A stretch of DNA of 64,000 nucleotides from Candidatus Hydrogenedens sp. (GCA_049968235.1 JBMFRC010000001.1:160001-224000), one strand, 5' to 3'. Shown: positions 17,686-60,721, counted from the stretch's first letter. The notes: generated by a model from the letters alone, not told the origin. Program-made: numbers and translations.

Positions 17686-20600
17686 TTACTGCATGTATCC
17701 GGTGGCTTTTAACTGTTCAATTAGTTCCTGAGGTAAGGTTGTCTGTTCAGGTACTTTTTTATCAGTCTGTTCTTCTTTGTTTCTTTTCACCATATCCATT
17801 AACTGCAATAAATCCTGTTTTATAATTAAATAATCATTATTGGTGGACAGGTTATTTTTTTCTTTGGGGTCTTTTGATAAAACATACAGTTCTTCGGGTT
17901 TTAAGCCACGAGGATTGTCCGGATTGGCAAGGATAAGTTTTTGGTCTTTTCTTCGTATTGATTGCATAATTTGCCCTTCAGTCTCATTTTCCGCCCATGA
18001 AATAACTTCTTCGTGCTTTATGATTTTCCCATCCTTTGATAGTAAAGGTTTACCTGTAAATGTTTTGGGTTGCGTTATCCCGGCTATTTCTGTCAAAGTT
18101 GCGGATAAATCAATATGACGCACCAATCCCTCTACTTTTTGATTGGTATTAATCTCTTCAGCATAGACATCCGGAACTTTTATTATTAATGGGACATGTA
18201 GCATTTCTTGATATAGGGTAAAACCGTGCCACCAACCTTGATGGTCTTCAAATTCTTCTCCATGGTCAGCGGTAAAAATGACATAAGAATTACTTAAAAG
18301 ACCACGCTTCTCAAGTTCATTTAAAAACTTCCCAAAATATTTATCGAGATATTCAATTTCTGCAATATAGGCATCTCGCATAAGGGGAGTTAAATGACTT
18401 TTAGGAGTATTTCCTAATAAAGCACGAGGATAAAAAGTTTTTTTCTCCGGATGAAAATATGGGTCATGGGTATCCATATAATGAAGAACTAAATAGAAAG
18501 GATGCTCTTTAAACGAACGATTATCTATCCATTGCAAGGCTTCCGATGTTACAATCTCTGCGGGTTGATAATACTCTCGCACATCTGGTGGTTTGTTTAA
18601 TATTTTTAAAATAATTGATGAAATTTTTCCATAAACACGTCGCAGTATTTCGTAAATTGTTAACCTGGCACTGGAATCCCCGGCAAAAAATACCCGCTTC
18701 GGTTGTAATTCTGTATATTCAATAAAACCTTTATTAAAACCAAACAAGGAATGCACATTGGGATTATTTGCAAACCCTTTGGTAAGGTAACCATTTTGGG
18801 ACAGGACATCTGCCACAGTAGGCAAATTTGAATTAATAATGGCATTTTTGGTCGTTGCATAATGTTGTGATGGGATGACACCTGTATAAATCGAAGCAAA
18901 GGCTGGTTTTGTCCATGAAGAGTGAGAATTGCAATCTTTAAATAAAATAGATTTTTCTATAAATTTATCTAATTCAGGGGTCTTTGTCTCTATATCCGGG
19001 TTATATGCGGGTAAATAATCAGCCCGGAGTGCATCCGCAATAATGAGGATTATATTGGGTGAATTGGGATGAGCATCTGCAAGTGAAACCCGATTTTCTT
19101 TTTTCCCTCCTGATGGAACAATAGATATATAGCATGCACCCAGAAAAAAAGGTAAGAAAAGACATAGAATAATTACGACATAAAAAAACTTTTTTGACCT
19201 GCGAGATAGGTAAAATAAAACGATATAAAATACTGCTGAAAAAATAAGCATAATCCCTAAGTAATAACAACTTAATGGTAGGAATACCTGATATGAAACA
19301 GGTTTCTGGAGTAAAATATCCCGCCAATATCGCCATAGAACCAGAACAAATCCGGTGGATAACAATGTTGCAGATACAGAAACTACATAGATAAAAAGTG
19401 AAGAGGGAAATTTTTTTATCAAGAGAGGGAACCATCCTCCTATAAAAATCCCTATACCTAACCCGATACCTGCGCAGGTTATACCATACATTAAAGGTCC
19501 CCACCACAGCATTTGATATTCATGAAGGTTTGTAAATTTGTATATTATCCATAAAGATTCTACAAACCCACAGAACGCTCCTGCAGAAAAACCACCGATT
19601 ATCCCATATAAAAGATTCCTAAAAATCTGATTCCGCATTGCAAGTAATTCCTGAGGGTTGAATTGTTGTGGCAAGCCCGTTGTAAAAGTAGCCTGCGATT
19701 GGATATTAGACATCTGTTTCTGTATTTCTTCTTTTTGGGGTCGCTTCCGCAAGACAAGGAAAGGAAGACCTATCAGAAAAGGAATCACATCTCCAATCCA
19801 CCAGCCTAAATGAGCAAAAGCAACTACCTTCAATGTGTTTTCTTTTCCCCCTAATAATGTGGCAAATACAATTTCACGAATCCCTTCTCCACCGACCGAA
19901 GGTCCCAAAACAGTTCCATAAATCATCAACGGACTTGCAAATAACACATCCCACAAACTTGTATTTTCAGAACGCAATGCCATCATTGTCCCGAAATACA
20001 TAAGACAAGCACTTAGATGAACAAATAAACCACATAATATCGCCAGTAATAAATATTTGCGGTGTCCAGCATAAGCAGTAGCGGAACTCCCTAATCGATT
20101 TAAGATATTCTTAATTTTTTTAGGTATTGGAACCGCATATAAAATAATCTGAATAATATAAGGCTGGAGTAACAGAGATAAGAAAAAAAGCACAGCAAAC
20201 CCCAAAATCATCAGAATAATTATAAGAAATAGCGTGTTAAACCGCAGTAAACGAAATCCGAGTGGAAAGGTCAAAAACACAAGTGTTGTCAGTGATATAA
20301 ATCCAATAATTTTTTCAATAAATATAACCGTAGCACAACGGATAACATCGCCTGTATATCTTACAGAATCATACAAGCGATAACCATCTAGACCAATTGT
20401 ACTGGGAAGGAAAATGCCAATGGTTCTGCCAATAAACCAACTTTGAGTCATATAAGTGAACGGCATGTATAAATTCTGACCGTTTAACAGGATTTTCCAT
20501 CGGACAACTCCACTCATAATCCCAGCCAGGCGTATAAGTAATGCAAATAAAACCCATGGAAGAGCATGGGATAAATTTAATGAACGGATTTCATTGATTA

Positions 20601-20748
20601 GGGCACCAGGTTTTACCCCTCCGAATGTATCCTCAGATAAGCCAAAAGTTTCTGGCCAGAAAAGTAACACAAAAAGACCTATCGTAACACTTGCCTTTAA
20701 GAGGATAGATATCATTCGCTTCATGAAGCATGAATTTCCTTGTATCAA
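17686..20748 (-). CDS. Polytopic membrane protein with an N-terminal flippase-like (lysyl-PG synthase TM-type) region fused to a C-terminal sulfatase/alkaline-phosphatase-superfamily domain
   Basis: 1020 aa with at least 12 predicted TM helices. The sulfatase-family motifs NIILIIADALRADYL and TADHGEEFEDHQGWWHG lie in the C-terminal third. Confidence 0.65.
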   Translation of the reverse strand: MIQGNSCFMKRMISILLKASVTIGLFVLLFWPETFGLSEDTFGGVKPGALINEIRSLNLSHALPWVLFALLIRLAGIMSGVVRWKILLNGQNLYMPFTYMTQSWFIGRTIGIFLPSTIGLDGYRLYDSVRYTGDVIRCATVIFIEKIIGFISLTTLVFLTFPLGFRLLRFNTLFLIIILMILGFAVLFFLSLLLQPYIIQIILYAVPIPKKIKNILNRLGSSATAYAGHRKYLLLAILCGLFVHLSACLMYFGTMMALRSENTSLWDVLFASPLMIYGTVLGPSVGGEGIREIVFATLLGGKENTLKVVAFAHLGWWIGDVIPFLIGLPFLVLRKRPQKEEIQKQMSNIQSQATFTTGLPQQFNPQELLAMRNQIFRNLLYGIIGGFSAGAFCGFVESLWIIYKFTNLHEYQMLWWGPLMYGITCAGIGLGIGIFIGGWFPLLIKKFPSSLFIYVVSVSATLLSTGFVLVLWRYWRDILLQKPVSYQVFLPLSCYYLGIMLIFSAVFYIVLFYLSRRSKKFFYVVIILCLFLPFFLGACYISIVPSGGKKENRVSLADAHPNSPNIILIIADALRADYLPAYNPDIETKTPELDKFIEKSILFKDCNSHSSWTKPAFASIYTGVIPSQHYATTKNAIINSNLPTVADVLSQNGYLTKGFANNPNVHSLFGFNKGFIEYTELQPKRVFFAGDSSARLTIYEILRRVYGKISSIILKILNKPPDVREYYQPAEIVTSEALQWIDNRSFKEHPFYLVLHYMDTHDPYFHPEKKTFYPRALLGNTPKSHLTPLMRDAYIAEIEYLDKYFGKFLNELEKRGLLSNSYVIFTADHGEEFEDHQGWWHGFTLYQEMLHVPLIIKVPDVYAEEINTNQKVEGLVRHIDLSATLTEIAGITQPKTFTGKPLLSKDGKIIKHEEVISWAENETEGQIMQSIRRKDQKLILANPDNPRGLKPEELYVLSKDPKEKNNLSTNNDYLIIKQDLLQLMDMVKRNKEEQTDKKVPEQTTLPQELIEQLKATGYMQ

Positions 20749-20947: not shown

Positions 20948-22387
20948 GTGTCTTCTCATTTACAAACATCTCAAATAAAGTGGAAAATATCTTGCTCCCT
21001 TCTGAAAAAGGTTCTGGAAACAATTCGTTCTCGTCGCATTCCGGAAGGGAAAATTGGATATGTTTATGTTCCTGTTGATACTCCTTATAATCTTCTGGAA
21101 GAATTGTCCTCAATTCAAGGGGTGGGTAGATATTATTGGGCATCAAAAGATGAACCTTGGGAAATGGCTGGCTGGGGTGAAGCAGATGTCATCGTTGCGG
21201 ATGAAGAAATCTACGATTTTTCATACACTTCAGTTATTCAGAAAATTGCAAATCGTTTATCATACAACTATCCGACAGTCCGATATTATGGAGGATTTAA
21301 GTTTCTACCTTTAGATAATCGTGGAAACCGTTGGAAATCATTTCGTGCATATCGTTTTGTGGTCCCACGAATTGAGTTATTGCGAACAAACACAGAAATG
21401 TATCTCATAATCAATATTATGGGAGGAGATATTGAGTATGAGTTAGAACAAATCAACTCTATTCTGGGTGCTCTCGATTTATGGATTCGGGGAGATACTC
21501 CTGAACAAACTGAACAGGAACCTATTTCTTTTCATCACCGCTTGGATTGCCCCTCAAAAACAGAATGGATAGAACTTATACGACGCACACTATCCCAAAT
21601 TGAGGCAGGTGTGTTTGATAAAGTAGTTTTAGCAAGAGAAACCACATTTGAAGCCAATCGTAGAATTGACCCTGTTCTTCTCTTAAAAGCAATGGTTGAA
21701 AATTACAGCCAGTGCTATCGTTTTTGTTTTAATCCTATACCGGAAAGAGGTTTTATTGGACTATCCCCTGAACGACTCTATAAAAGATTAAGCACTTATA
21801 TTGAAACAGAAGCATTAGCAGGAACTATTGCACGTGGTAAGGAAATAAATGAAGACGAATATCTAAAATCTTTGTTAATGAATAGCCTCAAGGAACGCAA
21901 AGAACATGAGATTGTCGTGAATATGCTGAGGACAAATATGGAGCGATTGTGTTCCACTTATGAATATGATGAGCATCCTAAAATAGTCTCTTTGCCCATA
22001 GTGCATCATCTCTATACCCATTTTAAGGGGATATTGCAACCTTTAGTAGGAGATGAAGAAATTTTAGAACAACTACATCCAACACCGGCTATAGGTGGTT
22101 ACCCACGAGGTTCGGCATTAGAGTGGATTAAGCAGGAAGAGCCTTTAGACCGTGGCATTTATTCCGGACCGGTCGGTTGGATTTCATATAGTTCTGCAGA
22201 ATTTTGTGTGGGAATTCGTTCTGCACTATTGCAAGGAGATAAAATATCTTTATATTCCGGAGCAGGAATTGTTAAGGGTTCTCAACCTGAAGCGGAATGG
22301 AATGAATTGGAATATAAAATTATGGGTTATCTAAATGTACTAACAAAAAGGAATCCTTACGAGAAGTGTATTGGAGAAAAACAATGA
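20948..22387 (+). CDS. menF: Isochorismate synthase (menaquinone pathway)
   Basis: C-terminal chorismate-binding domain (GIYSGPVGWI, GAGIV). The track start is a GTG; the real start may lie further downstream. Confidence 0.75.
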   Translation: MSSHLQTSQIKWKISCSLLKKVLETIRSRRIPEGKIGYVYVPVDTPYNLLEELSSIQGVGRYYWASKDEPWEMAGWGEADVIVADEEIYDFSYTSVIQKIANRLSYNYPTVRYYGGFKFLPLDNRGNRWKSFRAYRFVVPRIELLRTNTEMYLIINIMGGDIEYELEQINSILGALDLWIRGDTPEQTEQEPISFHHRLDCPSKTEWIELIRRTLSQIEAGVFDKVVLARETTFEANRRIDPVLLLKAMVENYSQCYRFCFNPIPERGFIGLSPERLYKRLSTYIETEALAGTIARGKEINEDEYLKSLLMNSLKERKEHEIVVNMLRTNMERLCSTYEYDEHPKIVSLPIVHHLYTHFKGILQPLVGDEEILEQLHPTPAIGGYPRGSALEWIKQEEPLDRGIYSGPVGWISYSSAEFCVGIRSALLQGDKISLYSGAGIVKGSQPEAEWNELEYKIMGYLNVLTKRNPYEKCIGEKQ

Positions 22388-24168
22388 CTTCTATCATCCC
22401 ATCACCCAATATGAATCATCTATGGGCAAGATTATTAGTTGAGGAACTTTATCGAAATGGAGTAAATGGTTTTTGCATTTCCCCCGGGTCTCGTTCTACC
22501 CCTCTGGCTCTGGCGGTATCACGACAAAAAGAGACTGTTCATCACATTCATGTGGACGAGCGTGGTATGGGCTTTTATGCATTAAACTGGGCAAAAACAC
22601 TGGGGAAACCTATTGCTTTAATCTGCACTTCCGGTACCGCTGTTGCAAATTATTTTCCATCTGTAGTTGAGGCATCTCTATCACGGGTACCCCTGATTAT
22701 TCTTACCGCAGACCGTCCACCGGAACTTTTACAATGTGGAGCCAATCAGGCTATTGAACAGTCCGATATTTTTGGGAATTATGTCCGCTGGTCATTCACT
22801 CTGCCCTGTCCGGATTCCGCCATTACTCCTACCGTTGTATTAACTACCGCAGGACATGCAGTATATCAATCCTGTCGACCTCCTGCGGGACCTGTTCATA
22901 TCAATTGTATGTTTCGCGAACCCTTAGAACCTATCGAAATAGATGGGGATATTCCTGAAAATTACACACAACCTTTTGATAACTGGTTAGCGAATAAAAA
23001 ACCTTTTACTCGCTGGAATTTGCCCGAACCCAGACTTACAACAGAACAGGAAATCTTTGTTCTGGACAAAATAGAAACTGTTCGGGAAGGGCTTCTTATA
23101 ATAGGAGAATTACGCAAAGAACAGGAAATCAAGTCCGCCTATAATCTGGCTCAATCACTGCACTGGCCTGTATTCCCGGATGTTACTTCGGGTTTGCGGT
23201 TGGGCAACAAAACAAATTTTTCTGTCCCTTATTATGACCAGATGCTCCTTCTTCCCGAATTTTCAGAAAAATTCAATCCTAAATTCATATTACATATAGG
23301 TGGAACTATTACTTCAAAACGGCTCCTTGAATTTTTAGAAAAGAAACGACCTGAATATATGCTTGTAACTGACCACCCATTACGCACAGACCCTATCCAT
23401 CGTGTTACCTATCGCTTTGAAACGGATTTGAGTTCTTTCTGCTCATGGTTAGCACCTGCTATGCGACGACGAGATGTTTATCCATGGGGGTCGGAAATTG
23501 TTGAATGGTCTCAAAGGATAGAACAGGTTATAGACACATGGACAGAGAAACAGGGGAACCTGAATGAAATTACTGTTGCTCGATACATATCTCAATGGAA
23601 ACCTGTCGAATCAGATTTATTTTTGGGTAATAGTATGCCTATTCGTGATGCGGATATGTACGGTTCTATCAACGGGACAGGAGGATTGGTTTTTGCAAAT
23701 CGTGGAGCCAGTGGAATTGATGGTACCATTGCAAGTTCTGCAGGCTTTTCTTTTGCCCGCAAACGAATTGTTACTGCCGTTATTGGAGACCTGTCTGCTC
23801 TTCATGACCTTAATTCCATACCTTTGTTATCCTGCGACGGCGTAAAAGTAATACTAATTATCATTAACAATGATGGAGGTGGAATATTTTCGTTCCTTCC
23901 TATTTCTGCATATCCCGAAACATTCGAAAGATACTTTGGTGTTCCTCACGGTTACCATTTCGGGAATGTTGCCAAGATGTTTGGGATTGACTATTCCATC
24001 GTTCAAACACTTAATGAATTGAAAAAAACCTATCAAAACGCCCTAAAAAAAGATGTATCAAAAATTATTGAAGTTTCGACTAATCGTCCTGAGAATCTAA
24101 AACTTCACAAAGAATTACAATATCAAATAAAAAAAGAACTCATAAAACTCATTCAAAAAAATAACTAA
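22384..24168 (+). CDS. menD: 2-succinyl-5-enolpyruvyl-6-hydroxy-3-cyclohexene-1-carboxylate synthase
   Basis: ThDP-dependent enzyme with the N-terminal motif CISPGSRSTPLALA. The ATG at 22384 overlaps the menF stop as ATGA. The track ORF starts 18 nt earlier. Confidence 0.8.
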   Translation: MTSIIPSPNMNHLWARLLVEELYRNGVNGFCISPGSRSTPLALAVSRQKETVHHIHVDERGMGFYALNWAKTLGKPIALICTSGTAVANYFPSVVEASLSRVPLIILTADRPPELLQCGANQAIEQSDIFGNYVRWSFTLPCPDSAITPTVVLTTAGHAVYQSCRPPAGPVHINCMFREPLEPIEIDGDIPENYTQPFDNWLANKKPFTRWNLPEPRLTTEQEIFVLDKIETVREGLLIIGELRKEQEIKSAYNLAQSLHWPVFPDVTSGLRLGNKTNFSVPYYDQMLLLPEFSEKFNPKFILHIGGTITSKRLLEFLEKKRPEYMLVTDHPLRTDPIHRVTYRFETDLSSFCSWLAPAMRRRDVYPWGSEIVEWSQRIEQVIDTWTEKQGNLNEITVARYISQWKPVESDLFLGNSMPIRDADMYGSINGTGGLVFANRGASGIDGTIASSAGFSFARKRIVTAVIGDLSALHDLNSIPLLSCDGVKVILIIINNDGGGIFSFLPISAYPETFERYFGVPHGYHFGNVAKMFGIDYSIVQTLNELKKTYQNALKKDVSKIIEVSTNRPENLKLHKELQYQIKKELIKLIQKNN

Positions 24169-24375
24169 ATATATAAACAATACTATTTCCCTTTGTAGAC
24201 ATACTGAATAATAGATGCTATCTTCATATTTATTTGTCCCGTCCATTCCATCTGCATCATCTATTATATTTACCTTATTATTTAGCCTTATCTACACCAT
24301 TTTACCTATATTCATTTTGTAACTTTAAAACAAATCATTTAAAATCTATAAAACTACAATCAATCAAATACAAAC

Positions 24376-25302
24376 TTGCGAAAGGAAACTAAAATGATAA
24401 CAAGCGACGATTTATCTCGTAGACGATTCTTATATGCCAGTGGTTCTTTTGTTTTAGGTTCAACCTTACTCCAAAAAAACCTTCTAGCACAATCGGGAAA
24501 CAACACTTATCCCCGCCTAAAAAAAGCCGTTCAGTGGAATAATCTTCCCAAAAATTTATCCGAATCTGACCGTTGTAAATTAGCTAAAGATTGTGGCTTT
24601 GATGGTATCGAGATACCTCCCTTTACTGACAATAATGAAGCAAACAAAGTTCTAGAATCTGCACAAAAAAATCAATTAGAAATTCATTCCATTATTTACG
24701 GTGGCTGGGATAAGCCTTTATCACACCCCAATCCTTCCGTAGTAGAGGAAGGAAAACAACGCATTAGCAACGCATTGGAATTGGCGAAACATGTTAGTGC
24801 CAGCACCGTGCTATTAGTCCCTGCGGTTGTTAATGAACAGGTTCGCTACCAGGAGGCGTGGGAACGTTCCCAACAGCATATTCGCGAATTGATTCCTGTA
24901 GCAGAAAAAAATCAAGTTATTATCGCGGTGGAAAATGTTTGGAACAAATTCCTTTTAAGTCCTTTAGAATTCCGTCAATATATTGATGAAATAAACAGTC
25001 CTTTTGTTCGTGCTTACTTCGACATGGCAAATGTAGTGATATTCGGCTACCCCCAGGATTGGATACGAACCTTAGGCAATCGCATTGTAAAACTACACAT
25101 AAAAGACTTTAAACGCAATGGTTATCAATGGTGTAATTTGCCTTACGAAGGGGATATAGATTTTGCAGAGGTTCGATTAGCCTTGAATGAAGTAGGTTAT
25201 ACCGGTTGGGTTACAGAAGAATTTCCTGCTGGAGATGAGAATTACTTAAAAGAACTTTCTCGACGGATAGATTTGTTCATCCAGGGAGCGAAAAAACCGT
25301 AA
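24376..25302 (+). CDS. Sugar phosphate isomerase/epimerase (xylose-isomerase-like TIM barrel) with a twin-arginine signal
   Basis: Tat motif SRRRFLYASGSFVLGSTLL near the N-terminus. The true start is probably MITSDD at about 24397. Confidence 0.7.
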   Translation: MRKETKMITSDDLSRRRFLYASGSFVLGSTLLQKNLLAQSGNNTYPRLKKAVQWNNLPKNLSESDRCKLAKDCGFDGIEIPPFTDNNEANKVLESAQKNQLEIHSIIYGGWDKPLSHPNPSVVEEGKQRISNALELAKHVSASTVLLVPAVVNEQVRYQEAWERSQQHIRELIPVAEKNQVIIAVENVWNKFLLSPLEFRQYIDEINSPFVRAYFDMANVVIFGYPQDWIRTLGNRIVKLHIKDFKRNGYQWCNLPYEGDIDFAEVRLALNEVGYTGWVTEEFPAGDENYLKELSRRIDLFIQGAKKP

Positions 25303-46062: not shown

Positions 46063-47796
46063 ATGATTCCACAGGTCATTATTATTTACCAGCAAAAAGA
46101 GTGGCACTTTGAAAAGCCATTAGAAGTGATAGTTGCTTCTCGTATAGAGGAGATAGTGCCTTCCTTACGAAATGTTCAACAGAGGGTTGAACAGGGTAAA
46201 TATGCTGTAGGATGGGTTACATACGAATCAGGACCCGCTTTTGATAGTGCTTTTCCACAACAAAAACTATCTATTCCGGACTTGCCATTTGTTTGGTTTG
46301 GGATATTCGATGAACCGACTCAGCATCTACTTTCTCCTTGTCGTAATAAAGTGGAGAAACCTCCTATAGAATGGCAACCTCAGGTATCTAAGGAAGAATA
46401 TAAAAAAGTTATTGAGGATATTCATAAAAACATTTCTTACGGGAATGTGTATCAGGTAAATTACACATTTTCTTTCCATAGTAATTGGAATAATAATCTT
46501 ATCTCCCTTTTTTACCATTTATGTTTCGCACAGGGAGAAGGATATTTTGTCTACATACAAACAGATAATTATACGATTCTTTCCATATCTCCCGAATTAT
46601 TTTTTCATTATAAAAACGGGAAAATAACGCTAAAACCGATGAAAGGCACCCGTCCTCGTGGTAGATGGAATATAGAAAATAAGAACAATTTCTATGAACT
46701 ACAAAACGACCCCAAAGACCGTGCAGAAAATCTCATGATTGTGGATTTACTAAGGAATGATGTAGGAAAGATAGCCAATTTGGGGAGTGTTGAGGTGCCG
46801 GAATTATTTACTTGCGAACCTTATCGTACTGTCTGGCAGATGACTTCTACTATAAAGGCAAAAACAGATAAAAGTTGGGTAGATGTGATTCAAGCACTTT
46901 TCCCTTCAGGTTCGGTTACAGGTGCTCCAAAAATATATGCGATGAAACTCATCCAGCAATATGAACCATTTCCTCGTGGAATATATTGTGGAACTGTTGG
47001 ATGGATAACACCCCAAAATGAAGCGGTCTTTAATGTCGCTATACGGACTTTATTGTATCATCATAAGTCACAAACTGCTCGTTATTATGTTGGGAGTGGT
47101 ATTGTGTGGGACTCCGACCCAGACAAGGAATGGGAAGAATGTATTACTAAAGGGGCTATACTTAATAAGTTTCCGTCATATTTTGAACTCATTGAAACCA
47201 TGCGGGTCGAGAATGGAGAAATATTCCTGTTAGATTATCATCTCCGTAGACTCCAGGAAAGTGCCGACCGTTTTCTATTTCCTGTTTCTATCCCTCAACT
47301 AAAAGAAAAACTGCTTAATTATGTAAATACAGTAACTGACACTTTGTATCGAATGAAATTATCCATTTCGCCTGATGGCAAATTTTTTATTGAACACAAT
47401 TCTTCCATAGGTCCTGTAAAATTACGAGTAGGTCTGGCAAAAAATCCAATAAATTCGCAAAATTTGTTCCTATACCACAAAACCAGTTATCGCACAATAT
47501 ATGAGCAGGCACGGCAGGAACGACTGGACTGTGATGATGTCCTGTTATGGAATGAAAAAAGATATGTTACAGAGAGTACAATTGCCAATATTATTGTGCA
47601 ATTCGGTGACAGGATGTTCACACCGCCGATACATTGTGGATTATTGCCCGGAACCTTCCGTCAATATTTACTGGACACTCATCAAATAGAGGAACGGGAA
47701 ATATCTATAGAGGAACTGTATAAAGCGGATGCGATGTATCTGGTTAACTCAGTTCGTAAATGGATAGAAATTGTATTAGTAGAGACAAAATTATGA
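46063..47796 (+). CDS. pabBC: Aminodeoxychorismate synthase component I fused to aminodeoxychorismate lyase (PabB-PabC fusion)
   Basis: Chorismate-utilising motifs ADRENLMIVDLLRNDVGKI, GSVTGAPKIYAM and PRGIYCGTVGWI. A C-terminal domain of about 200 aa looks like a class IV aminotransferase or ADC lyase. Confidence 0.65.
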   Translation: MIPQVIIIYQQKEWHFEKPLEVIVASRIEEIVPSLRNVQQRVEQGKYAVGWVTYESGPAFDSAFPQQKLSIPDLPFVWFGIFDEPTQHLLSPCRNKVEKPPIEWQPQVSKEEYKKVIEDIHKNISYGNVYQVNYTFSFHSNWNNNLISLFYHLCFAQGEGYFVYIQTDNYTILSISPELFFHYKNGKITLKPMKGTRPRGRWNIENKNNFYELQNDPKDRAENLMIVDLLRNDVGKIANLGSVEVPELFTCEPYRTVWQMTSTIKAKTDKSWVDVIQALFPSGSVTGAPKIYAMKLIQQYEPFPRGIYCGTVGWITPQNEAVFNVAIRTLLYHHKSQTARYYVGSGIVWDSDPDKEWEECITKGAILNKFPSYFELIETMRVENGEIFLLDYHLRRLQESADRFLFPVSIPQLKEKLLNYVNTVTDTLYRMKLSISPDGKFFIEHNSSIGPVKLRVGLAKNPINSQNLFLYHKTSYRTIYEQARQERLDCDDVLLWNEKRYVTESTIANIIVQFGDRMFTPPIHCGLLPGTFRQYLLDTHQIEEREISIEELYKADAMYLVNSVRKWIEIVLVETKL

Positions 47797-50168: not shown

Positions 50169-50669
50169 TTAATCTCTTTTCCGACTTCGGCTTTGACGAA
50201 TAGCATTTGCCTTATAGAACATGGCTGGCTCAATTATCGGGTCATGCAACCCTTCCGTTTCAATTCCACCAAAACAAACCCGCCCACGATAAGTGCGATT
50301 GGAAAGGATAATGGATATTGCCTGTCGAGACCATTTCTTCCCTTGACGGGTAAAAATCCCTTTAGAGTGCAGATAATCTACAACCCTGCCCGTGCTACGC
50401 GTCCGTATATATTCTCGGAAAATCATGCGAACAATTTCTGCTTCATAATCATCAACAACTAAAGGTTTTTCTCCTTCTTCACCACGGCGATAACCATACG
50501 GAGCCGGACCGGTTCCATATCTTCCCTGTTGAACGGAAGCAATTTGTCCACGACGCACCCGCTCTCCATGAGTTAAAAGATTTTTTACTGATGATTCCGG
50601 TTCTTTTATGGAAACTATCTCCGTAATGCTTCCTTTATGTTTCATTTCCTCTTTGCGCAACTTACTCAT
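50169..50669 (-). pseudogene. Internal fragment of a large serine recombinase (Recombinase domain only)
   Basis: GPAPYGYRR...LVVDDYEAEIVRMIFREYI...VDYLHSKGIFTRQGKKWSRQAISIILSNRTYRGRV...HDPIIEPAMF matches the linker plus PF07508 region of large serine recombinases. The N-terminal resolvase catalytic domain is absent. A stop lies 4 codons upstream of the Met and only 176 bp of intergenic DNA follow. The C-terminal zinc-ribbon and coiled-coil region is also absent. Confidence 0.65.
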
Positions 50670-57169: not shown

Positions 57170-57407
57170 AAAGAATTTCCTTTACAGGTTTCTATTATTA
57201 AATGATTCTTACCCTATGGGAAACTTGTTTCCTCCTATTAGTTTTTATACGGGTCATGAATGATGGGTATTTTACCATTTGACCATATAAATTATAAACT
57301 TTTATTTGGTATTTGATTTGAAAGTAGTTATAATAGTATATGTTTTTGAAATGTAAATTTTATTGTATCTATCAATAACATTAACCACTAAATGAAGGGA
57401 GTGTTTT

Positions 57408-58577
57408 ATGGCTAAAAAGACTGTAAATGTAGCAATGGTCGGTGGTGCGTTCATGGGTAAAACACATAGCAACGCATGGCGTAAAGTAGCGATGTTTTTT
57501 GACCCACCTGTAAATCCTGTGATGAAAGTGATGTGCGACAAGGACCCCAATGCATTGAAGAATGCGGAACGGTATGGCTGGCAGGAGACCTCGGACAATT
57601 GGGAAGAGGTGGTGAATCGCCCGGATATTGATGTTATTGATATTTGTACACCGAATTTCCTCCATCCTCCGATTGCTATTGCAGCGGCTAAGGCAGGTAA
57701 AGCAATTGTTTGCGAAAAGCCATTAGCCAATACATTAGCAGAAGCAAAGCAAATGTGGGATGCAGTGAAAAAAGCCGGTGTTCGCAATATGTGTGGTTTT
57801 TCCTATCGTTTCGCTCCAGCAGTGCAAACAATTAAACAACTGGTCTCAAAAGGACAATTGGGTGATATTTTCCATTTTCGTGCTGCATATCAACAGGACT
57901 GGATTGTTGACCCTGATTTTCCAATGGTATGGCGTTTGAAGAAAAAACATACCGGTTCGGGTGCGTTAGGAGACATTGGTGCACACATTACTGATTTGTG
58001 TCATTTTCTTGTAGGACAGGTATGTGAAGTTGCAGGAACGATGGAAACCTTTATAAAGAAACGCGTTGTGCCAGAAAGTGATGTGGGAGCATGGGGAGCT
58101 AAAGGTGGTAAAGGGAAAAAGGTCTATGACACTGTTGATGTTGATGATGCAGCAGTATATGTAGCAAGAATCCAGGGGAAAAACACATTGGCAACTTTTG
58201 AAGCAACGCGTTTTGCTCCGGGCAGAAGAAATTACAATAGCATTGAAATTTATGGAAGTAAAGGTTCCGTATTATGGAATCAGGAAGAAATGAACGAATT
58301 TCATTATTTCAATCGTAGTGACCCACCCACCTTACAGGGCTTTCGTAAAGTTCAAGCCTGTGATATGGGTCATCCTTATGTGCATGCATGGTGGCCACCG
58401 GGTCATATTATTGGTTATGAACATCTTTTCGTTCATGAAATTTATGAATTTCTGTGTAGTTTAGCCAGTAAGAAGATAAATTATCCCACATTTGAAGATG
58501 CGGTAAAATGTCAGGCAGTGTTGGATGCCGTGGAACGTGCTTCTGCTTCGAAAAAATGGGAAAAGGTCATAATTTAA
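57408..58577 (+). CDS. Gfo/Idh/MocA family sugar dehydrogenase (about 390-aa class)
   Basis: Rossmann motif VNVAMVGGAFMGKTH and EKPLA. The C-terminal alpha/beta domain carries WWPPGHIIGYEH. Confidence 0.8.
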   Translation: MAKKTVNVAMVGGAFMGKTHSNAWRKVAMFFDPPVNPVMKVMCDKDPNALKNAERYGWQETSDNWEEVVNRPDIDVIDICTPNFLHPPIAIAAAKAGKAIVCEKPLANTLAEAKQMWDAVKKAGVRNMCGFSYRFAPAVQTIKQLVSKGQLGDIFHFRAAYQQDWIVDPDFPMVWRLKKKHTGSGALGDIGAHITDLCHFLVGQVCEVAGTMETFIKKRVVPESDVGAWGAKGGKGKKVYDTVDVDDAAVYVARIQGKNTLATFEATRFAPGRRNYNSIEIYGSKGSVLWNQEEMNEFHYFNRSDPPTLQGFRKVQACDMGHPYVHAWWPPGHIIGYEHLFVHEIYEFLCSLASKKINYPTFEDAVKCQAVLDAVERASASKKWEKVII

Positions 58578-58616
58578 GGTTTGGAAATAAAAACTTTAAT
58601 AAAAGGAGAATGAAAT

Positions 58617-59579
58617 ATGAAATTAGGTCTATTGACAGTGATGTTTGGTGGAACACCTTTAAAAGATGTTCTTGAAATTATTCGTCCATTAAAACTTCAA
58701 TGTGTAGAATTAGGAACCGGGAATTACCCCGGTGGGGCTCATGCTCCTTTGAAAGAATTGTTATCTTCAAAACCCAGGCGAGATGAATTAAAAGCGATGT
58801 TAAAAGGAGAAGGTCTGGAAATTAGTGCTTTGAGTTGTCATGGGAATTGTTTACACCCTGACGCGGATTTTGCAAAGAAAAATCGCGAAGTCCAAACAGA
58901 TACCATTCGTCTGGCTCACGAATTAGGTGTTAAGGTCGTTATCGATTTTTCAGGCTGTCCCGGTTCTGACCCTTCTGCAAAGAAACCTAACTGGGTTACC
59001 TGTGCCTGGCCTCCCGATTATCTGGATATATTGAAATGGCAATGGGAAGAAGTGGCTATCCCATATTGGTCAAAACAGGCGAAATTTGCCCGTGACCACG
59101 GAGTAAATCTTGCTTTTGAAATGCACCCCGGCTTTCTTGTGTACAACACAGAAACATTGTTAAAACTTCGCAAAACCTGTGGGAATAACATCGGCGCTAA
59201 TTTAGACCCCAGCCATTTATTCTGGCAGGGTATGGACCCCTGTGCCGTTGTCCGTGTATTAGGTAAAGCCATATTCCATGTGCATGCCAAAGATTCCAAA
59301 GTTGATGCAACGAACACAATGGTAAATGGTGTGCTGGATACGAAACATTATGGAGATGAGATTCATCGTTCATGGATATTCCGCACTTGCGGTTATGGGC
59401 ATAGTTTAGAATGGTGGAAGGATTTCTTCTCCAATCTACGCATGGTGGGTTATGATGGTGCTATTAGTATTGAACATGAAGATAGTTTAATGTCCAATCG
59501 TGAAGGTTTGACCAAAGCAGTTGAATTTTTGAAACAAGCCATTATTGCGGAAAAACCAACCGCAATGACCTGGGCATAA
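58617..59579 (+). CDS. Sugar phosphate isomerase/epimerase (xylose-isomerase-like TIM barrel), cytoplasmic
   Basis: 320 aa with AP-endonuclease-2 / xylose-isomerase-like motifs (FEMHPG, HVHAKD, SIEHED). No signal peptide. Confidence 0.75.
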   Translation: MKLGLLTVMFGGTPLKDVLEIIRPLKLQCVELGTGNYPGGAHAPLKELLSSKPRRDELKAMLKGEGLEISALSCHGNCLHPDADFAKKNREVQTDTIRLAHELGVKVVIDFSGCPGSDPSAKKPNWVTCAWPPDYLDILKWQWEEVAIPYWSKQAKFARDHGVNLAFEMHPGFLVYNTETLLKLRKTCGNNIGANLDPSHLFWQGMDPCAVVRVLGKAIFHVHAKDSKVDATNTMVNGVLDTKHYGDEIHRSWIFRTCGYGHSLEWWKDFFSNLRMVGYDGAISIEHEDSLMSNREGLTKAVEFLKQAIIAEKPTAMTWA

Positions 59580-59594
59580 AACTTTTTTGGAATA

Positions 59595-59645
59595 GGGAGA
59601 GTCTAATGTAGGCTCTCCCTTAACACTTTTTAAACTCTTTTTAAG
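59595..59645 (+). terminator. Intra-operon hairpin plus T-tract (candidate intrinsic terminator or attenuator)
   Basis: AGGGAGAG-tctaatgtagg-CTCTCCCT is a perfect 8-bp stem. It is followed by taacactttttaaactcttttt and then the SD AAGGAGG of the next gene. Confidence 0.45.
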
Positions 59646-59656
59646 GAGGATTCTCC

Positions 59657-60655
59657 ATGGCTATCCAGGTAGGTATTGTAGGACTGGGAATGATGGGTAA
59701 AGTGCATTTTGATACCTATAACAAATTAAAGGGTGTCAAAGTGGTGGCAGTGTGTGATGCCGATGAAAAGAAACGAAAAGGGAATATAGGTCCGTTTGGT
59801 ACTCTTGACCTGAGTAAGGTAAAAGTCTATTCCCGAGTAGAAGAAATTCTCAATGACCCTCAGGTGGATGTATTAGATATTACATTACCCACACCTGCTC
59901 ATGCTCCGATTACAATACAGGCATTTCAAGCAGGGAAACATGTCATATGTGAGAAGCCCATGGCTCGAACCTCCGCCGAAGCACTGGAGATGATAAAATC
60001 GGCAAAGAAATACAAAAAACATTTATATATCGCACATTGCATTCGATTCTGGCCCTCTTATATCATTGCAAAAGAAATGGTTGAAAGCGGGAAATATGGC
60101 AAAGTACGTACCGCAAAGTTCAGTCGCATTAGTCCACTTCCCGGTTGGAGTTGGCAAAATTGGCTTCAATCCGCACAACATTCCGGCAGATGTGCTCTTG
60201 ACCTTCATATTCACGATGCGGACTTTGTCCGCTATTTATTTGGGAAACCCCGGACCGTTCAAAGTTTAGGAGTAAGTCTCGCACTAGGAGGTATTGACCA
60301 TATTATTACCAGTTATAATTATCCAGACCGCCATTGGGTCGTTGCAGAAGGAGCATGGGAATATAGCACTACCTATCCTTTCTCAATGACTTTTACTATT
60401 GCGATGGAACAGGGAACTTTAGAGATGTCTCGCGATTTATCGCTGACTTATTACCCCAATCGAGGCAAACCCAAGCAGATTAAAGTTCTCAAAGGAGATG
60501 GCTACGAAGGGGAATTAAGACATTTTCTTGAATGTTTACAAAAAGACCGTGATTCGGATATTATTCCCTCAGAAGAAGCGTATAAAACACTACTTCTAAT
60601 TGAAGCAGAGATTGAATCGGTTAAAACACAAAAACCCGTGTCCGTTCGTGGATAA
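59657..60655 (+). CDS. Gfo/Idh/MocA family oxidoreductase (about 330-aa class)
   Basis: IQVGIVGLGMMGKVHFDTY and EKPMA. Confidence 0.8.
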   Translation: MAIQVGIVGLGMMGKVHFDTYNKLKGVKVVAVCDADEKKRKGNIGPFGTLDLSKVKVYSRVEEILNDPQVDVLDITLPTPAHAPITIQAFQAGKHVICEKPMARTSAEALEMIKSAKKYKKHLYIAHCIRFWPSYIIAKEMVESGKYGKVRTAKFSRISPLPGWSWQNWLQSAQHSGRCALDLHIHDADFVRYLFGKPRTVQSLGVSLALGGIDHIITSYNYPDRHWVVAEGAWEYSTTYPFSMTFTIAMEQGTLEMSRDLSLTYYPNRGKPKQIKVLKGDGYEGELRHFLECLQKDRDSDIIPSEEAYKTLLLIEAEIESVKTQKPVSVRG

Positions 60656-60662
60656 AATTTAA

Positions 60663-60699
60663 GGGCTGGACTCGTCAGTCTTATCGAACCTGTCCAGCC
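60663..60699 (+). terminator. GC-rich stem-loop after the operon (weak terminator or REP-like element)
   Basis: GGGCTGGAC-(20 nt)-GTCCAGCC. The downstream U-tract is poor. Confidence 0.3.
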
Positions 60700-60721
60700 T
60701 AAAAGTTTAACAAAGTTTACC

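What the first reader, a model, noticed from the sequence alone, without database searches (positions are those of the whole stretch)
57408..60700. Gfo/Idh/MocA - TIM-barrel isomerase - Gfo/Idh/MocA operon with an internal attenuator-like hairpin
- The gene trio mirrors the logic of the 3-keto-sugar pathways: oxidise C3, cleave or eliminate with a xylose-isomerase-like TIM barrel, then reduce. Examples are levoglucosan LgdA/LgdB/LgdC and glycoside-3-oxidation deglycosylation.
- The 389-aa first dehydrogenase is in the LgdA size class.
- A perfect 8-bp GC hairpin followed by a T-tract lies between genes 2 and 3. The next gene has its own strong SD, which suggests transcriptional polarity control.
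- A second, Tat-exported TIM-barrel paralogue sits at 24.4 kb.
- The substrate is unknown and may be a novel anhydro- or glycosylated sugar.
Basis: partly seen in the sequence, partly recalled or inferred. Interest (0 to 1): 0.5.

Follow-up and report, generated by a model that had tools for sequence, protein, structure and literature searches.

The report
Keto-sugar pathway genes in Hydrogenedentota
Three neighbouring genes in an uncultured Hydrogenedentota bacterium most likely open a sugar ring or glycosidic bond by oxidising the sugar instead of hydrolysing it; this is an uncharacterised variant of the known levoglucosan / 3-keto-glycoside pathway, with unknown substrate.

Summary
The three ORFs, their Shine-Dalgarno sites and the hairpin are all real. 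The window comes from a Candidatus Hydrogenedens (Hydrogenedentota) genome.

- **Gene 1 (389 aa):** it falls in the levoglucosan-dehydrogenase branch of Gfo/Idh/MocA but is not an LgdA equivalog. It scores 382 bits on NCBIfam NF052479 against a cutoff of 650, where a true LgdA scores 743. It is 40% identical to PpLgdA. It belongs to an uncharacterised sister clade that includes PDB 4H3V.
- **Gene 2 (320 aa):** it belongs to the LgdB2 / 2-hydroxy-3-keto-glucal hydratase TIM-barrel family. It is 57% identical to the syntenic LgdB2 orthologue in a Weizmannia lgd cluster. AtHYD (8RO4) is its closest characterised structure.
- **Conserved core:** the gene 1–gene 2 pair recurs in at least five phyla, in places with sugar ABC transporters and a 3-keto-glycoside β-eliminase.
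- **Gene 3 (332 aa):** it is a generic Gfo/Idh/MocA protein, joined to the pair only in the closest relatives. Its role as the final reductase rests on adjacency alone.
- **Hairpin:** it keeps its pairing through compensatory changes. Relatives that lack gene 3 have a GC-rich hairpin at the same position after gene 2, so I read it as the old terminator of the pair, now leaky. It is not a demonstrated attenuator.
- **Inositol catabolism:** not supported.
- **TIM barrel at 24.4 kb:** unrelated.

Verdict: a new variant of a known kind, of moderate-to-low interest.

The parts
57306..57334 (+). Sigma-70-type promoter of the unit (TTGGTA, 17 nt, TATAAT)
   Evidence: It matches 10 of 12 consensus positions. 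The -10 block TATAATAGTATAT is almost invariant (one mismatch in L003) and the -35 is nearly invariant across seven orthologous loci, while the flanks diverge.
57408..58577 (+). Gene 1: 389-aa cytoplasmic NAD-type Gfo/Idh/MocA dehydrogenase of the 4H3V clade, sister to levoglucosan dehydrogenase LgdA; proposed sugar C3-dehydrogenase
   Evidence: - NF052479 scores 381.7 bits over the full length, against a cutoff of 650.
- PDB hits: 4h3v 396 bits, 6a3f 302 bits.
- Identity is 46-47% to 4H3V and 40% to PpLgdA.
- The EKP motif and the GDIGAH catalytic His are conserved.
58617..59579 (+). Gene 2: 320-aa metal-dependent TIM barrel of the LgdB2 / 2-hydroxy-3-keto-glucal hydratase family
   Evidence: - PF01261.
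- 57% identical to the syntenic LgdB2 orthologue in Weizmannia locus L070.
- Both termini match those encoded by the BsLgdB2 cloning primers.
- E168, D197, H223 and E286 are invariant.
59594..59620 (+). Conserved 12-bp stem-loop directly after gene 2: probable ancestral terminator of the gene 1–gene 2 pair, now a leaky terminator or 3'-end stabiliser
   Evidence: - Fold energies are.
- All 10 consensus pairs are kept in 7 loci, and 4 pairs show compensatory double changes.
- Relatives without gene 3 have a GC-rich hairpin at the same place.
- The site is not called by the consensus terminator scan.
59643..59649 (+). Shine-Dalgarno site AAGGAGG of gene 3
   Evidence: Read from the sequence. It is conserved as GGAG in all seven loci.
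59657..60655 (+). Gene 3: 332-aa Gfo/Idh/MocA oxidoreductase with no specific family; proposed (inferred) NADH-dependent 3-keto-sugar reductase
   Evidence: - Pfam and NCBIfam give only generic matches below 130 bits.
- PDB matches reach at most 91 bits.
- It sits next to the pair only in L001-L006.
- Relatives elsewhere are 37-50% identical and lie in unrelated contexts.
60663..60700 (+). Hairpin after gene 3 (9-bp stem GGGCTGGAC/GTCCAGCCT, 20-nt loop), a possible terminator before recD2
   Evidence: The region folds at -25.6 kcal/mol. The sequence is not conserved in the orthologous loci.

Best explanation
The unit is a cytoplasmic 'cleavage by oxidation' module, transcribed from a conserved promoter at 57306-57334.

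1. **Oxidation (inferred from homology).** Gene 1 uses NAD+ to oxidise the C3 hydroxyl of an imported gluco-configured sugar, either an anhydro-sugar or a small glycoside.
2. **Elimination and hydration (inferred from family membership).** Gene 2 is an LgdB2 / AtHYD-type metal-dependent TIM barrel. It hydrates the 2-hydroxy-3-keto-glucal intermediate to 3-keto-glucose. Like Bacillus smithii LgdB2, it may also carry out the preceding beta-elimination, because no separate eliminase is present here.
3. **Reduction (inferred from adjacency only).** The keto group is reduced back with NADH, by gene 3 in this lineage or by gene 1 itself where gene 3 is absent.

The net reaction would be redox-neutral, like a GH4 glycosidase split across separate proteins.

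The evolutionarily conserved unit is the gene 1–gene 2 pair. The stem-loop after gene 2 is the pair's old terminator. Gene 3 is probably expressed by read-through at a lower level.
For: **Gene 1**
- Its best family is levoglucosan dehydrogenase, end to end.
- PDB ranking is 4H3V > LgdA 6A3F > 4GQA, all far above inositol dehydrogenases.
- The catalytic EKP motif and His are conserved.

**Gene 2**
- It is 57% identical to the TIM barrel that follows lgdC in Weizmannia locus L070.
- That locus holds an LgdA scoring 743 bits on NF052479. Its gene order matches the B. smithii accessions LgdA 822, LgdC 826, LgdB2 827.
- The BsLgdB2 primers encode KLGVFTVLY...EEMWWA*, which matches the family termini.
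- Its size fits the roughly 325-aa LgdB2 class rather than the roughly 275-aa LgdB1 class.
- Foldseek gives 2ZDS 1e-18 and AtHYD 1e-16, against about 1e-12 for generic epimerases.
- The E-D-H-E metal ligands are invariant.
- B. smithii LgdB2 alone converts 3-keto-levoglucosan to 3-keto-glucose when Mn2+ is present.

**Genomic context**
- Gene 1-type dehydrogenases sit next to gene 2 homologues in Hydrogenedentota, Phycisphaerales, KSB1, Clostridia and Chloroflexia.
- In the KSB1 locus L014 the pair lies between an AtOGE / AL1-like beta-eliminase and a sugar ABC transporter (8BVK E = 2e-20).
- In the Chloroflexia locus L068 the pair follows LacI, a solute-binding protein and two further ORFs, of which the one scanned is an ABC permease.
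- 54 of 80 loci have a Gfo/Idh/MocA gene directly beside the gene 2 homologue.

**Hairpin.**
Against: - No activity has been measured for any member of the gene 1 clade.
- No transporter, regulator or eliminase lies near the unit in this window. The neighbours are housekeeping genes.
- In published lgd clusters, LgdB2 always co-occurs with LgdB1. LgdB1 is absent here.
- In gut Clostridia the gene 2 family sits beside a glycosyltransferase and a B12/radical-SAM gene. That looks biosynthetic.
- Genes 1 and 2 are 70-80% identical across much of the phylum, which is unusually tight for an accessory catabolic pair.
- Gene 3's link rests only on adjacency in seven closely related genomes.
- The hairpin lacks an adjacent U-tract.
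Confidence: 0.55

Rival explanations
1. It is a genuine levoglucosan (1,6-anhydroglucose) utilisation operon. Gene 1 would be LgdA, gene 2 LgdB2 and gene 3 a functional stand-in for LgdC.
For: - Levoglucosan dehydrogenase is gene 1's top family hit, over the full length.
- Gene 2 is in the LgdB2 family.
- LgdB2 can do both elimination and hydration.
Against: - Gene 1 scores 382 bits against a cutoff of 650, while a true LgdA scores 743.
- It is 40% identical to PpLgdA, whereas true LgdA proteins share 70% or more.
- Clade-specific loops differ: WWPPGHxxGYEH in the gene 1 clade against LWPIPALGIGYGET in LgdA.
- LgdB1 accompanies 253 of 265 LgdA genes and is absent here.
- Gene 1-clade loci carry SBP_bac_1/8-type transporters. 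The Weizmannia lgd locus instead has a Peripla_BP-like binding protein, read by eye and not scanned, with a fused ATPase.
Confidence: 0.1
2. The pair makes or remodels a keto- or deoxy-sugar for a cellular product, such as an envelope glycan or glycolipid. It would not be catabolic.
For: - Genes 1 and 2 are very highly conserved across Hydrogenedentota.
- The pair sits among housekeeping genes, with no transporter or regulator.
- The Clostridial gene 2 homologues lie beside GT2 and B12/radical-SAM genes.
Against: - The nearest characterised relatives of both proteins are catabolic.
- The gene 1-type pairs in KSB1 and Chloroflexia sit in transporter operons, one of them LacI-regulated.
Confidence: 0.2
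3. It is ordinary myo-inositol catabolism, with IolG-type dehydrogenases and an IolE-type dehydratase.
Against: - All these scores are far below the curated cutoffs: 120 and 126 bits against 355, and 48 against 290.
- LgdA-branch and AtHYD matches are much stronger.
- None of the 26 window ORFs scanned with Pfam is an iol-type gene. The other roughly 30 ORFs were not scanned.
Confidence: 0.03
4. The hairpin is a regulated attenuator or riboswitch-like element that controls gene 3.
For: The stem-loop is conserved. In the window, L001 and L002, a second weak AU-rich helix could cover gene 3's Shine-Dalgarno site.
Against: - There is no Rfam match and no leader ORF.
- The second helix is not conserved in L003-L006.
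- A GC-rich hairpin occupies the same position after gene 2 in genomes that have no gene 3.
Confidence: 0.07

Closest known systems
Levoglucosan pathway LgdA / LgdB1 / LgdB2 / LgdC (Bacillus smithii S-2701M; Paenarthrobacter)
   Same: - It starts with a roughly 390-aa Gfo/Idh/MocA C3-dehydrogenase of the same branch.
- It contains an LgdB2-family TIM barrel of about 320 aa.
- A further Gfo/Idh/MocA gene lies downstream.
- All proteins are cytoplasmic.
   Different: - Gene 1 is a sister clade, not an equivalog (40% identity, 382 bits against a cutoff of 650).
- There is no LgdB1 eliminase and no ABC transporter.
- Gene 3 is 332 aa and only about 26% identical to the LgdC-like protein of L070.
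Agrobacterium tumefaciens 3-keto-glucoside pathway (GlycDH, AtOGE 8BVK, AtHYD 8RO4, Gfo reductase)
   Same: - It follows the same oxidise, eliminate, hydrate, reduce logic.
- The last step uses a Gfo reductase.
   Different: - The A. tumefaciens oxidase (GlycDH) is not a Gfo/Idh/MocA enzyme (FAD-dependent, from my own knowledge).
- Gene 2 and AtHYD share only about 21% identity.
Bacteroides / Alistipes BT2156-2160 / AL1-AL5 broad-specificity pathway
   Same: It oxidises C3 with a Gfo/Idh/MocA enzyme, then eliminates and hydrates.
   Different: - Those enzymes are periplasmic and carry signal peptides. Hydration there is done by a DUF1080 protein.
- Genes 1 and 3 score only 29-53 bits on the BT_2158 and BT_2159 models, against cutoffs of 650-750.
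- The three proteins here show no signal-peptide-like N-termini by inspection. No predictor was run.
PDB 4H3V (Kribbella flavida) and 2ZDS (Streptomyces coelicolor SCO6571), structural-genomics proteins deposited without a functional name
   Different: The depositors' names give no function for either ('Oxidoreductase domain protein', 'Putative DNA-binding protein'), so they do not inform on substrate.

Membership tests
LgdA (levoglucosan dehydrogenase, NCBIfam NF052479 equivalog) | Score at or above the curated cutoff of 650 bits | tested here: not met
   Gene 1 scores 381.7 bits. The control LgdA in L070 scores 742.9, and other gene 1-clade proteins score 372-430.
LgdA (levoglucosan dehydrogenase, NCBIfam NF052479 equivalog) | At least about 60-70% identity to characterised LgdA proteins (the criterion of Kaur et al. 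2023) | tested here: not met
   Gene 1 is 40% identical to PpLgdA (6A3F) and 42% to the L070 LgdA. True LgdA proteins are 70% or more identical to each other.
LgdA (levoglucosan dehydrogenase, NCBIfam NF052479 equivalog) | Catalytic EKP motif and active-site His (E103 and H193 in LgdA numbering) | tested here: met
   CEKPL and GALGDIGAH align with the LgdA motifs.
LgdA (levoglucosan dehydrogenase, NCBIfam NF052479 equivalog) | An LgdB1 eliminase in the neighbourhood (253 of 265 cases) | tested here: not met
   There is no OGE- or LgdB1-like gene anywhere in the 64-kb window. The only other PF01261 protein found among the ORFs scanned is unrelated.
LgdA (levoglucosan dehydrogenase, NCBIfam NF052479 equivalog) | Levoglucosan-contacting residues and levoglucosan oxidation activity | not testable with these tools
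   The structure paper (PMC6231136) is not held.
LgdB2 / 2-hydroxy-3-keto-glucal hydratase (AtHYD-type PF01261 TIM barrel) | PF01261 protein of about 325 aa, as opposed to about 275 aa for LgdB1 | tested here: met
   Gene 2 is 320 aa with PF01261 at 122.5 bits.
LgdB2 / 2-hydroxy-3-keto-glucal hydratase (AtHYD-type PF01261 TIM barrel) | Sequence relationship to B. smithii LgdB2 | tested here: met
   The test is indirect.
- Gene 2 is 57% identical to the gene that follows lgdC in the syntenic Weizmannia cluster.
- The termini encoded by the BsLgdB2 primers, KLGVFTVLY and EEMWWA*, match the family.
LgdB2 / 2-hydroxy-3-keto-glucal hydratase (AtHYD-type PF01261 TIM barrel) | Closest solved fold is AtHYD, not an eliminase, epimerase or C-glycoside deglycosidase | tested here: met
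   - Foldseek: 2ZDS 1e-18, 8RO4 1e-16, others about 1e-12.
- The model has mean pLDDT 83.7.
LgdB2 / 2-hydroxy-3-keto-glucal hydratase (AtHYD-type PF01261 TIM barrel) | Divalent-metal ligands of the TIM-barrel family (Glu, Asp, His, Glu) | tested here: met
   E168, D197, H223 and E286 are invariant in 28 sequences spanning 55-92% identity. They align with the ELHPG, DPSH, HVKD and LEWE motifs of AtHYD.
LgdB2 / 2-hydroxy-3-keto-glucal hydratase (AtHYD-type PF01261 TIM barrel) | Hydratase or eliminase activity on 2-hydroxy-3-keto-glucal or 3-keto-levoglucosan | not testable with these tools
   This needs an enzyme assay.
LgdC (glucose 3-dehydrogenase / 3-keto-glucose reductase) | Gfo/Idh/MocA protein of about 385-390 aa similar to BsLgdC | tested here: not met
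   Gene 3 is 332 aa. It is 26% identical (69 bits) to the LgdC-like protein of L070, whose N-terminus matches the BsLgdC primer.
myo-Inositol catabolism (IolG / IolE) | Scores above the TIGR04380 (355) and TIGR04379 (290) cutoffs | tested here: not met
   The scores are 119.6, 126.1 and 48.2 bits.
Canonical intrinsic terminator | GC-rich stem immediately followed by a U-tract | tested here: inconclusive
   The stem is present and conserved. The U-run starts 7 nt after the stem in the window and is absent in L005 and L006. The scan does not call the site.

The most novel reading that the evidence does not exclude
The gene 1–gene 2 pair may be a self-sufficient, two-protein, redox-neutral bond-cleaving system. 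A 4H3V-clade dehydrogenase would both oxidise the substrate and re-reduce the product. An LgdB2-type barrel would both eliminate and hydrate. The system would act on a still unidentified common sugar, would be near-universal in Hydrogenedentota, and has spread to at least five phyla. It would be distinct from the levoglucosan system.
Probability: 0.3. Interest if true: 0.55.

Novelty: new variant of a known kind. Interest (0 to 1): 0.35.

Why it matters
Non-hydrolytic, oxidation-driven cleavage of sugars has only recently been recognised as widespread. Examples are the levoglucosan, Agrobacterium and Bacteroides pathways.

This locus shows that an LgdB2 / AtHYD-type hydratase is far more widespread than lgd clusters: 369 clusters at 50% identity reach E <= 1e-30. 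It is regularly paired with a distinct, uncharacterised sister clade of levoglucosan dehydrogenase that already has a solved structure (4H3V), deposited without a functional name.

Finding the substrate would give that structure a function. It would also add a carbohydrate route for the poorly known phylum Hydrogenedentota. The pathway logic itself is already known, so the gain is incremental.

Tried and rejected
- **Inositol pathway:** rejected on curated cutoffs.
- **BT / AL periplasmic system:** rejected. By eye, the three proteins have no signal-peptide-like N-termini.
- **24.4-kb TIM barrel as a partner:** rejected. BLASTP gives E = 0.24. Its best PDB match is UlaE at 37 bits. It follows menF and menD.
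- **Hairpin as a repeated REP-like element:** rejected, because it occurs once in the window.
- **Known RNA family in the spacers:** none found.
- **Context of gene 3 relatives in metagenomes:** this gave only housekeeping neighbours and no functional clue.
- **Levoglucosan-binding residues:** I could not obtain them. Sugiura 2018 and Arya 2022 are not held.
- **Structure prediction:** I used a shallower alignment of 72-83% identity instead.


Full report
**Observation**

The window holds three same-strand ORFs at 57408-58577 (389 aa), 58617-59579 (320 aa) and 59657-60655 (332 aa). The spacers are 39 and 77 nt, and each ORF has a strong Shine-Dalgarno site. Pfam assigns Gfo/Idh/MocA domains to the first and third and the xylose-isomerase-like TIM barrel PF01261 to the second.

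Close homologues are named Candidatus Hydrogenedens or Hydrogenedentota. The flanking genes have no evident link to sugar metabolism apart from a secreted DUF4838 protein of unknown function. They are a pabB-pabC fusion, tatC and tatA, MTHFR, a URO-D family protein, the DUF4838 protein, a divergent methyltransferase and recD2.

**Gene 1**

- Its best NCBIfam family is levoglucosan dehydrogenase NF052479, matched end to end. The score is 381.7 bits against a curated cutoff of 650.
- As a calibration, the LgdA in the Weizmannia acidilactici locus L070 scores 742.9 bits. Other dehydrogenases that sit beside gene 2 homologues score 372-430, and an LgdC-like protein scores 194.
- In the PDB the order is 4H3V (Kribbella, function unknown, 396 bits), LgdA 6A3F (302), 4GQA (227), 4FB5 (196) and scyllo-inositol / L-glucose dehydrogenase (187). 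All lie far above DgpA, GFOR and the inositol dehydrogenases, which score 90 bits or less.
- Identity is about 46% to 4H3V and 40% to PpLgdA. True LgdA proteins share 70% or more with each other.
- The EKP motif and the catalytic His are conserved.
- Two loops differ by clade. The gene 1 / 4H3V clade has HPYVxxWWPPGHxxGYEH and EATRFAxGR. LgdA has HPYGEGLWPIPALGIGYGET and EATRNA(H/W)GRNN.

Gene 1 is therefore a member of a sister clade of LgdA, not an LgdA.

**Gene 2**

- By sequence it matches only SCO6571 (2ZDS, 74 bits) and the A. tumefaciens 2-hydroxy-3-keto-glucal hydratase AtHYD (8RO4, 46 bits). AtOGE, IolE and the epimerases are at noise level.
- The link to LgdB2 comes from locus L070. 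That locus encodes a binding protein, an LgdA 70% identical to 6A3F, an ABC ATPase, a permease, a 389-aa Gfo protein and then a TIM barrel 57% identical to gene 2.
- This order matches the B. smithii accession series LgdA BCB28822, LgdC BCB28826, LgdB2 BCB28827.
- The published cloning primers for BsLgdB2 encode KLGVFTVLY at the N-terminus and EEMWWA-stop at the C-terminus. The family consensus is MKLGVFTVLF...MxWA, and the L070 protein ends in DEMWWA. The BsLgdC primer encodes EKIKVGII, identical to the L070 Gfo protein.
- LgdB2 proteins are about 325 aa and LgdB1 proteins about 275 aa.
- The metal ligands E168, D197, H223 and E286 are invariant.

Gene 2 is therefore an LgdB2 / AtHYD-type enzyme. 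B. smithii LgdB2 is Mn2+-dependent. On its own it converts 3-keto-levoglucosan to 3-keto-glucose.

**Gene 3**

It has only generic matches. UDP-GlcNAc 3-dehydrogenase and IolG score about 126 bits, and the best PDB match is 91 bits. It is shorter than LgdC and about 26% identical to the LgdC-like protein of L070.

**Synteny**

- The full trio occurs only in the six closest genomes, L001-L006.
- More distant Hydrogenedentota keep gene 1–gene 2 as a bicistron in changing housekeeping surroundings, without gene 3 (L007-L009 and L161-L163).
- Dehydrogenases of the gene 1 type, closer to 4H3V than to LgdA, lie beside gene 2 homologues in Phycisphaerales, KSB1, Clostridia and Chloroflexia.
- In the KSB1 locus L014 the order is a 258-aa TIM barrel, the gene 1 type, the gene 2 type, two ABC permeases and a solute-binding protein. 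The best solved relatives of that 258-aa barrel are the O-glycoside beta-eliminase AtOGE (2e-20) and the AL1 / BT1 3-keto-glucoside lyases.
- In the Chloroflexia locus L068 the pair follows LacI, a binding protein and two further ORFs, of which the one scanned is an ABC permease.
- An OGE-like gene also precedes the gene 2 homologue in the Clostridial loci L026 and L027.
- Overall, 54 of 80 loci have a Gfo/Idh/MocA gene directly adjacent to the gene 2 homologue.
- Relatives of gene 3 elsewhere are only 37-50% identical and sit among unrelated genes.

The conserved functional unit is the pair. Gene 3 is a lineage-specific addition.

**Regulatory features**

- *Promoter.* A sigma-70-like promoter (TTGGTA, 17 nt, TATAAT; 57306-57334) is nearly invariant across seven orthologous loci, while the surrounding sequence diverges.
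- *Hairpin.* The hairpin at 59594-59620 folds at -19.2 kcal/mol. The orthologous hairpins fold at -18 to -27 kcal/mol. All ten consensus pairs are kept in all seven sequences, and four pairs show compensatory double changes. The seven sequences represent only about three independent lineages, so this evidence is suggestive rather than strong.
- *Genomes without gene 3.* They carry a strong GC-rich hairpin at the same place after gene 2. This identifies the element as the terminator of the ancestral bicistron.
- *U-tract.* The U-run is displaced by 7 nt in the window and missing in L005 and L006. The consensus scan does not call the site.
- *Attenuator features.* I found no Rfam family, no leader ORF and no conserved alternative helix.

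I read the hairpin as a leaky terminator or a 3'-end stabiliser that lowers gene 3 expression relative to genes 1 and 2. This is inference.

**Mechanism proposed**

1. Gene 1 oxidises C3 of an imported gluco-configured sugar. This is inferred from homology.
2. Gene 2 hydrates the enone intermediate and probably also forms it. This is inferred from family membership, from the bifunctionality of BsLgdB2 and from the absence of an eliminase here.
3. Gene 3 or gene 1 reduces the keto group. This is inferred from adjacency only.

The substrate is unknown. Levoglucosan itself is unlikely for three reasons: gene 1 fails the equivalog tests, LgdB1 is absent, and the gene 1-clade loci use a different transporter class.

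**Caveats**

- There is no transporter or regulator at this locus.
- Both proteins are very highly conserved within the phylum.
- The Clostridial contexts with GT2 and B12/radical-SAM genes keep a biosynthetic role open.

**Verdict**

The finding is a new variant of a known pathway type, not a new kind of system. Its interest is moderate to low.

Noticed in passing
window 20948-25302: The Tat-signal (RRRFL) PF01261 TIM barrel at 24376-25302 lies directly downstream of menF-like (chorismate-binding) and menD-like (TPP enzyme) genes. It shares only the superfamily with gene 2.
   Followed up: partly
L014 1509-7974 (KSB1 MAG MZGM01000036.1): This is a compact cluster on one strand. It holds an AtOGE / AL1-like beta-eliminase, a 4H3V-clade dehydrogenase, an LgdB2-type barrel, two ABC permeases and a solute-binding protein. 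It is the most complete version of the module seen and a good target for substrate discovery.
   Followed up: partly
L016 297-6969 and L018 2661-6969 (gut Clostridia MAGs): Here the gene 2 homologues (57-59% identical) sit after a GT2 glycosyltransferase, a 261-aa TIM barrel and a roughly 365-aa Gfo/Idh/MocA gene. In L016 a MurQ-like SIS protein and a B12/radical-SAM enzyme also lie upstream. In L018 a radical-SAM gene lies downstream instead. This looks biosynthetic rather than catabolic.
   Followed up: no
L070 6001-6969 (Weizmannia acidilactici PP-18): The LgdB2 orthologue in this otherwise intact lgd-like cluster carries an in-frame stop codon after residue 218. It is either a pseudogene or a sequencing error.
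   Followed up: no
window 57321-57341 and orthologous loci: Just beyond the -10 hexamer, the block TATAATAGTATAT is nearly invariant in seven loci (one mismatch in L003) and partly palindromic (ATATA / TATAT). It could be an operator that overlaps the promoter.
   Followed up: no
window 50169-50669 (-): A 166-aa ORF carries only the PF07508 Recombinase domain. It is probably a fragment of a serine recombinase or mobile element.
   Followed up: no
window 46063-47796 (+): A single 577-aa protein fuses a chorismate-binding (PabB-like) domain to an aminotransferase class IV (PabC-like) domain.
   Followed up: no
window 17686-20748 (-): A 1020-aa protein combines an LPG_synthase_TM membrane domain with a sulfatase / phosphodiesterase domain.
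   Followed up: no
window 9313-12279 (+): A 988-aa ORF has no Pfam match at E <= 1e-5.
   Followed up: no
gene 2 residues 233-259 (window 59313-59393): This is the only low-confidence stretch of the model (pLDDT < 50), yet it is packed with invariant residues (N233, G238, D241, T242, K243, Y245, E248, R251, W253, F255, R256, G259). A similar motif, R-x-(W/G)-x-F-(R/V)-(T/S)-x-G-x-G, is present in 2ZDS and AtHYD. It is probably a subfamily-specific active-site lid.
   Followed up: partly
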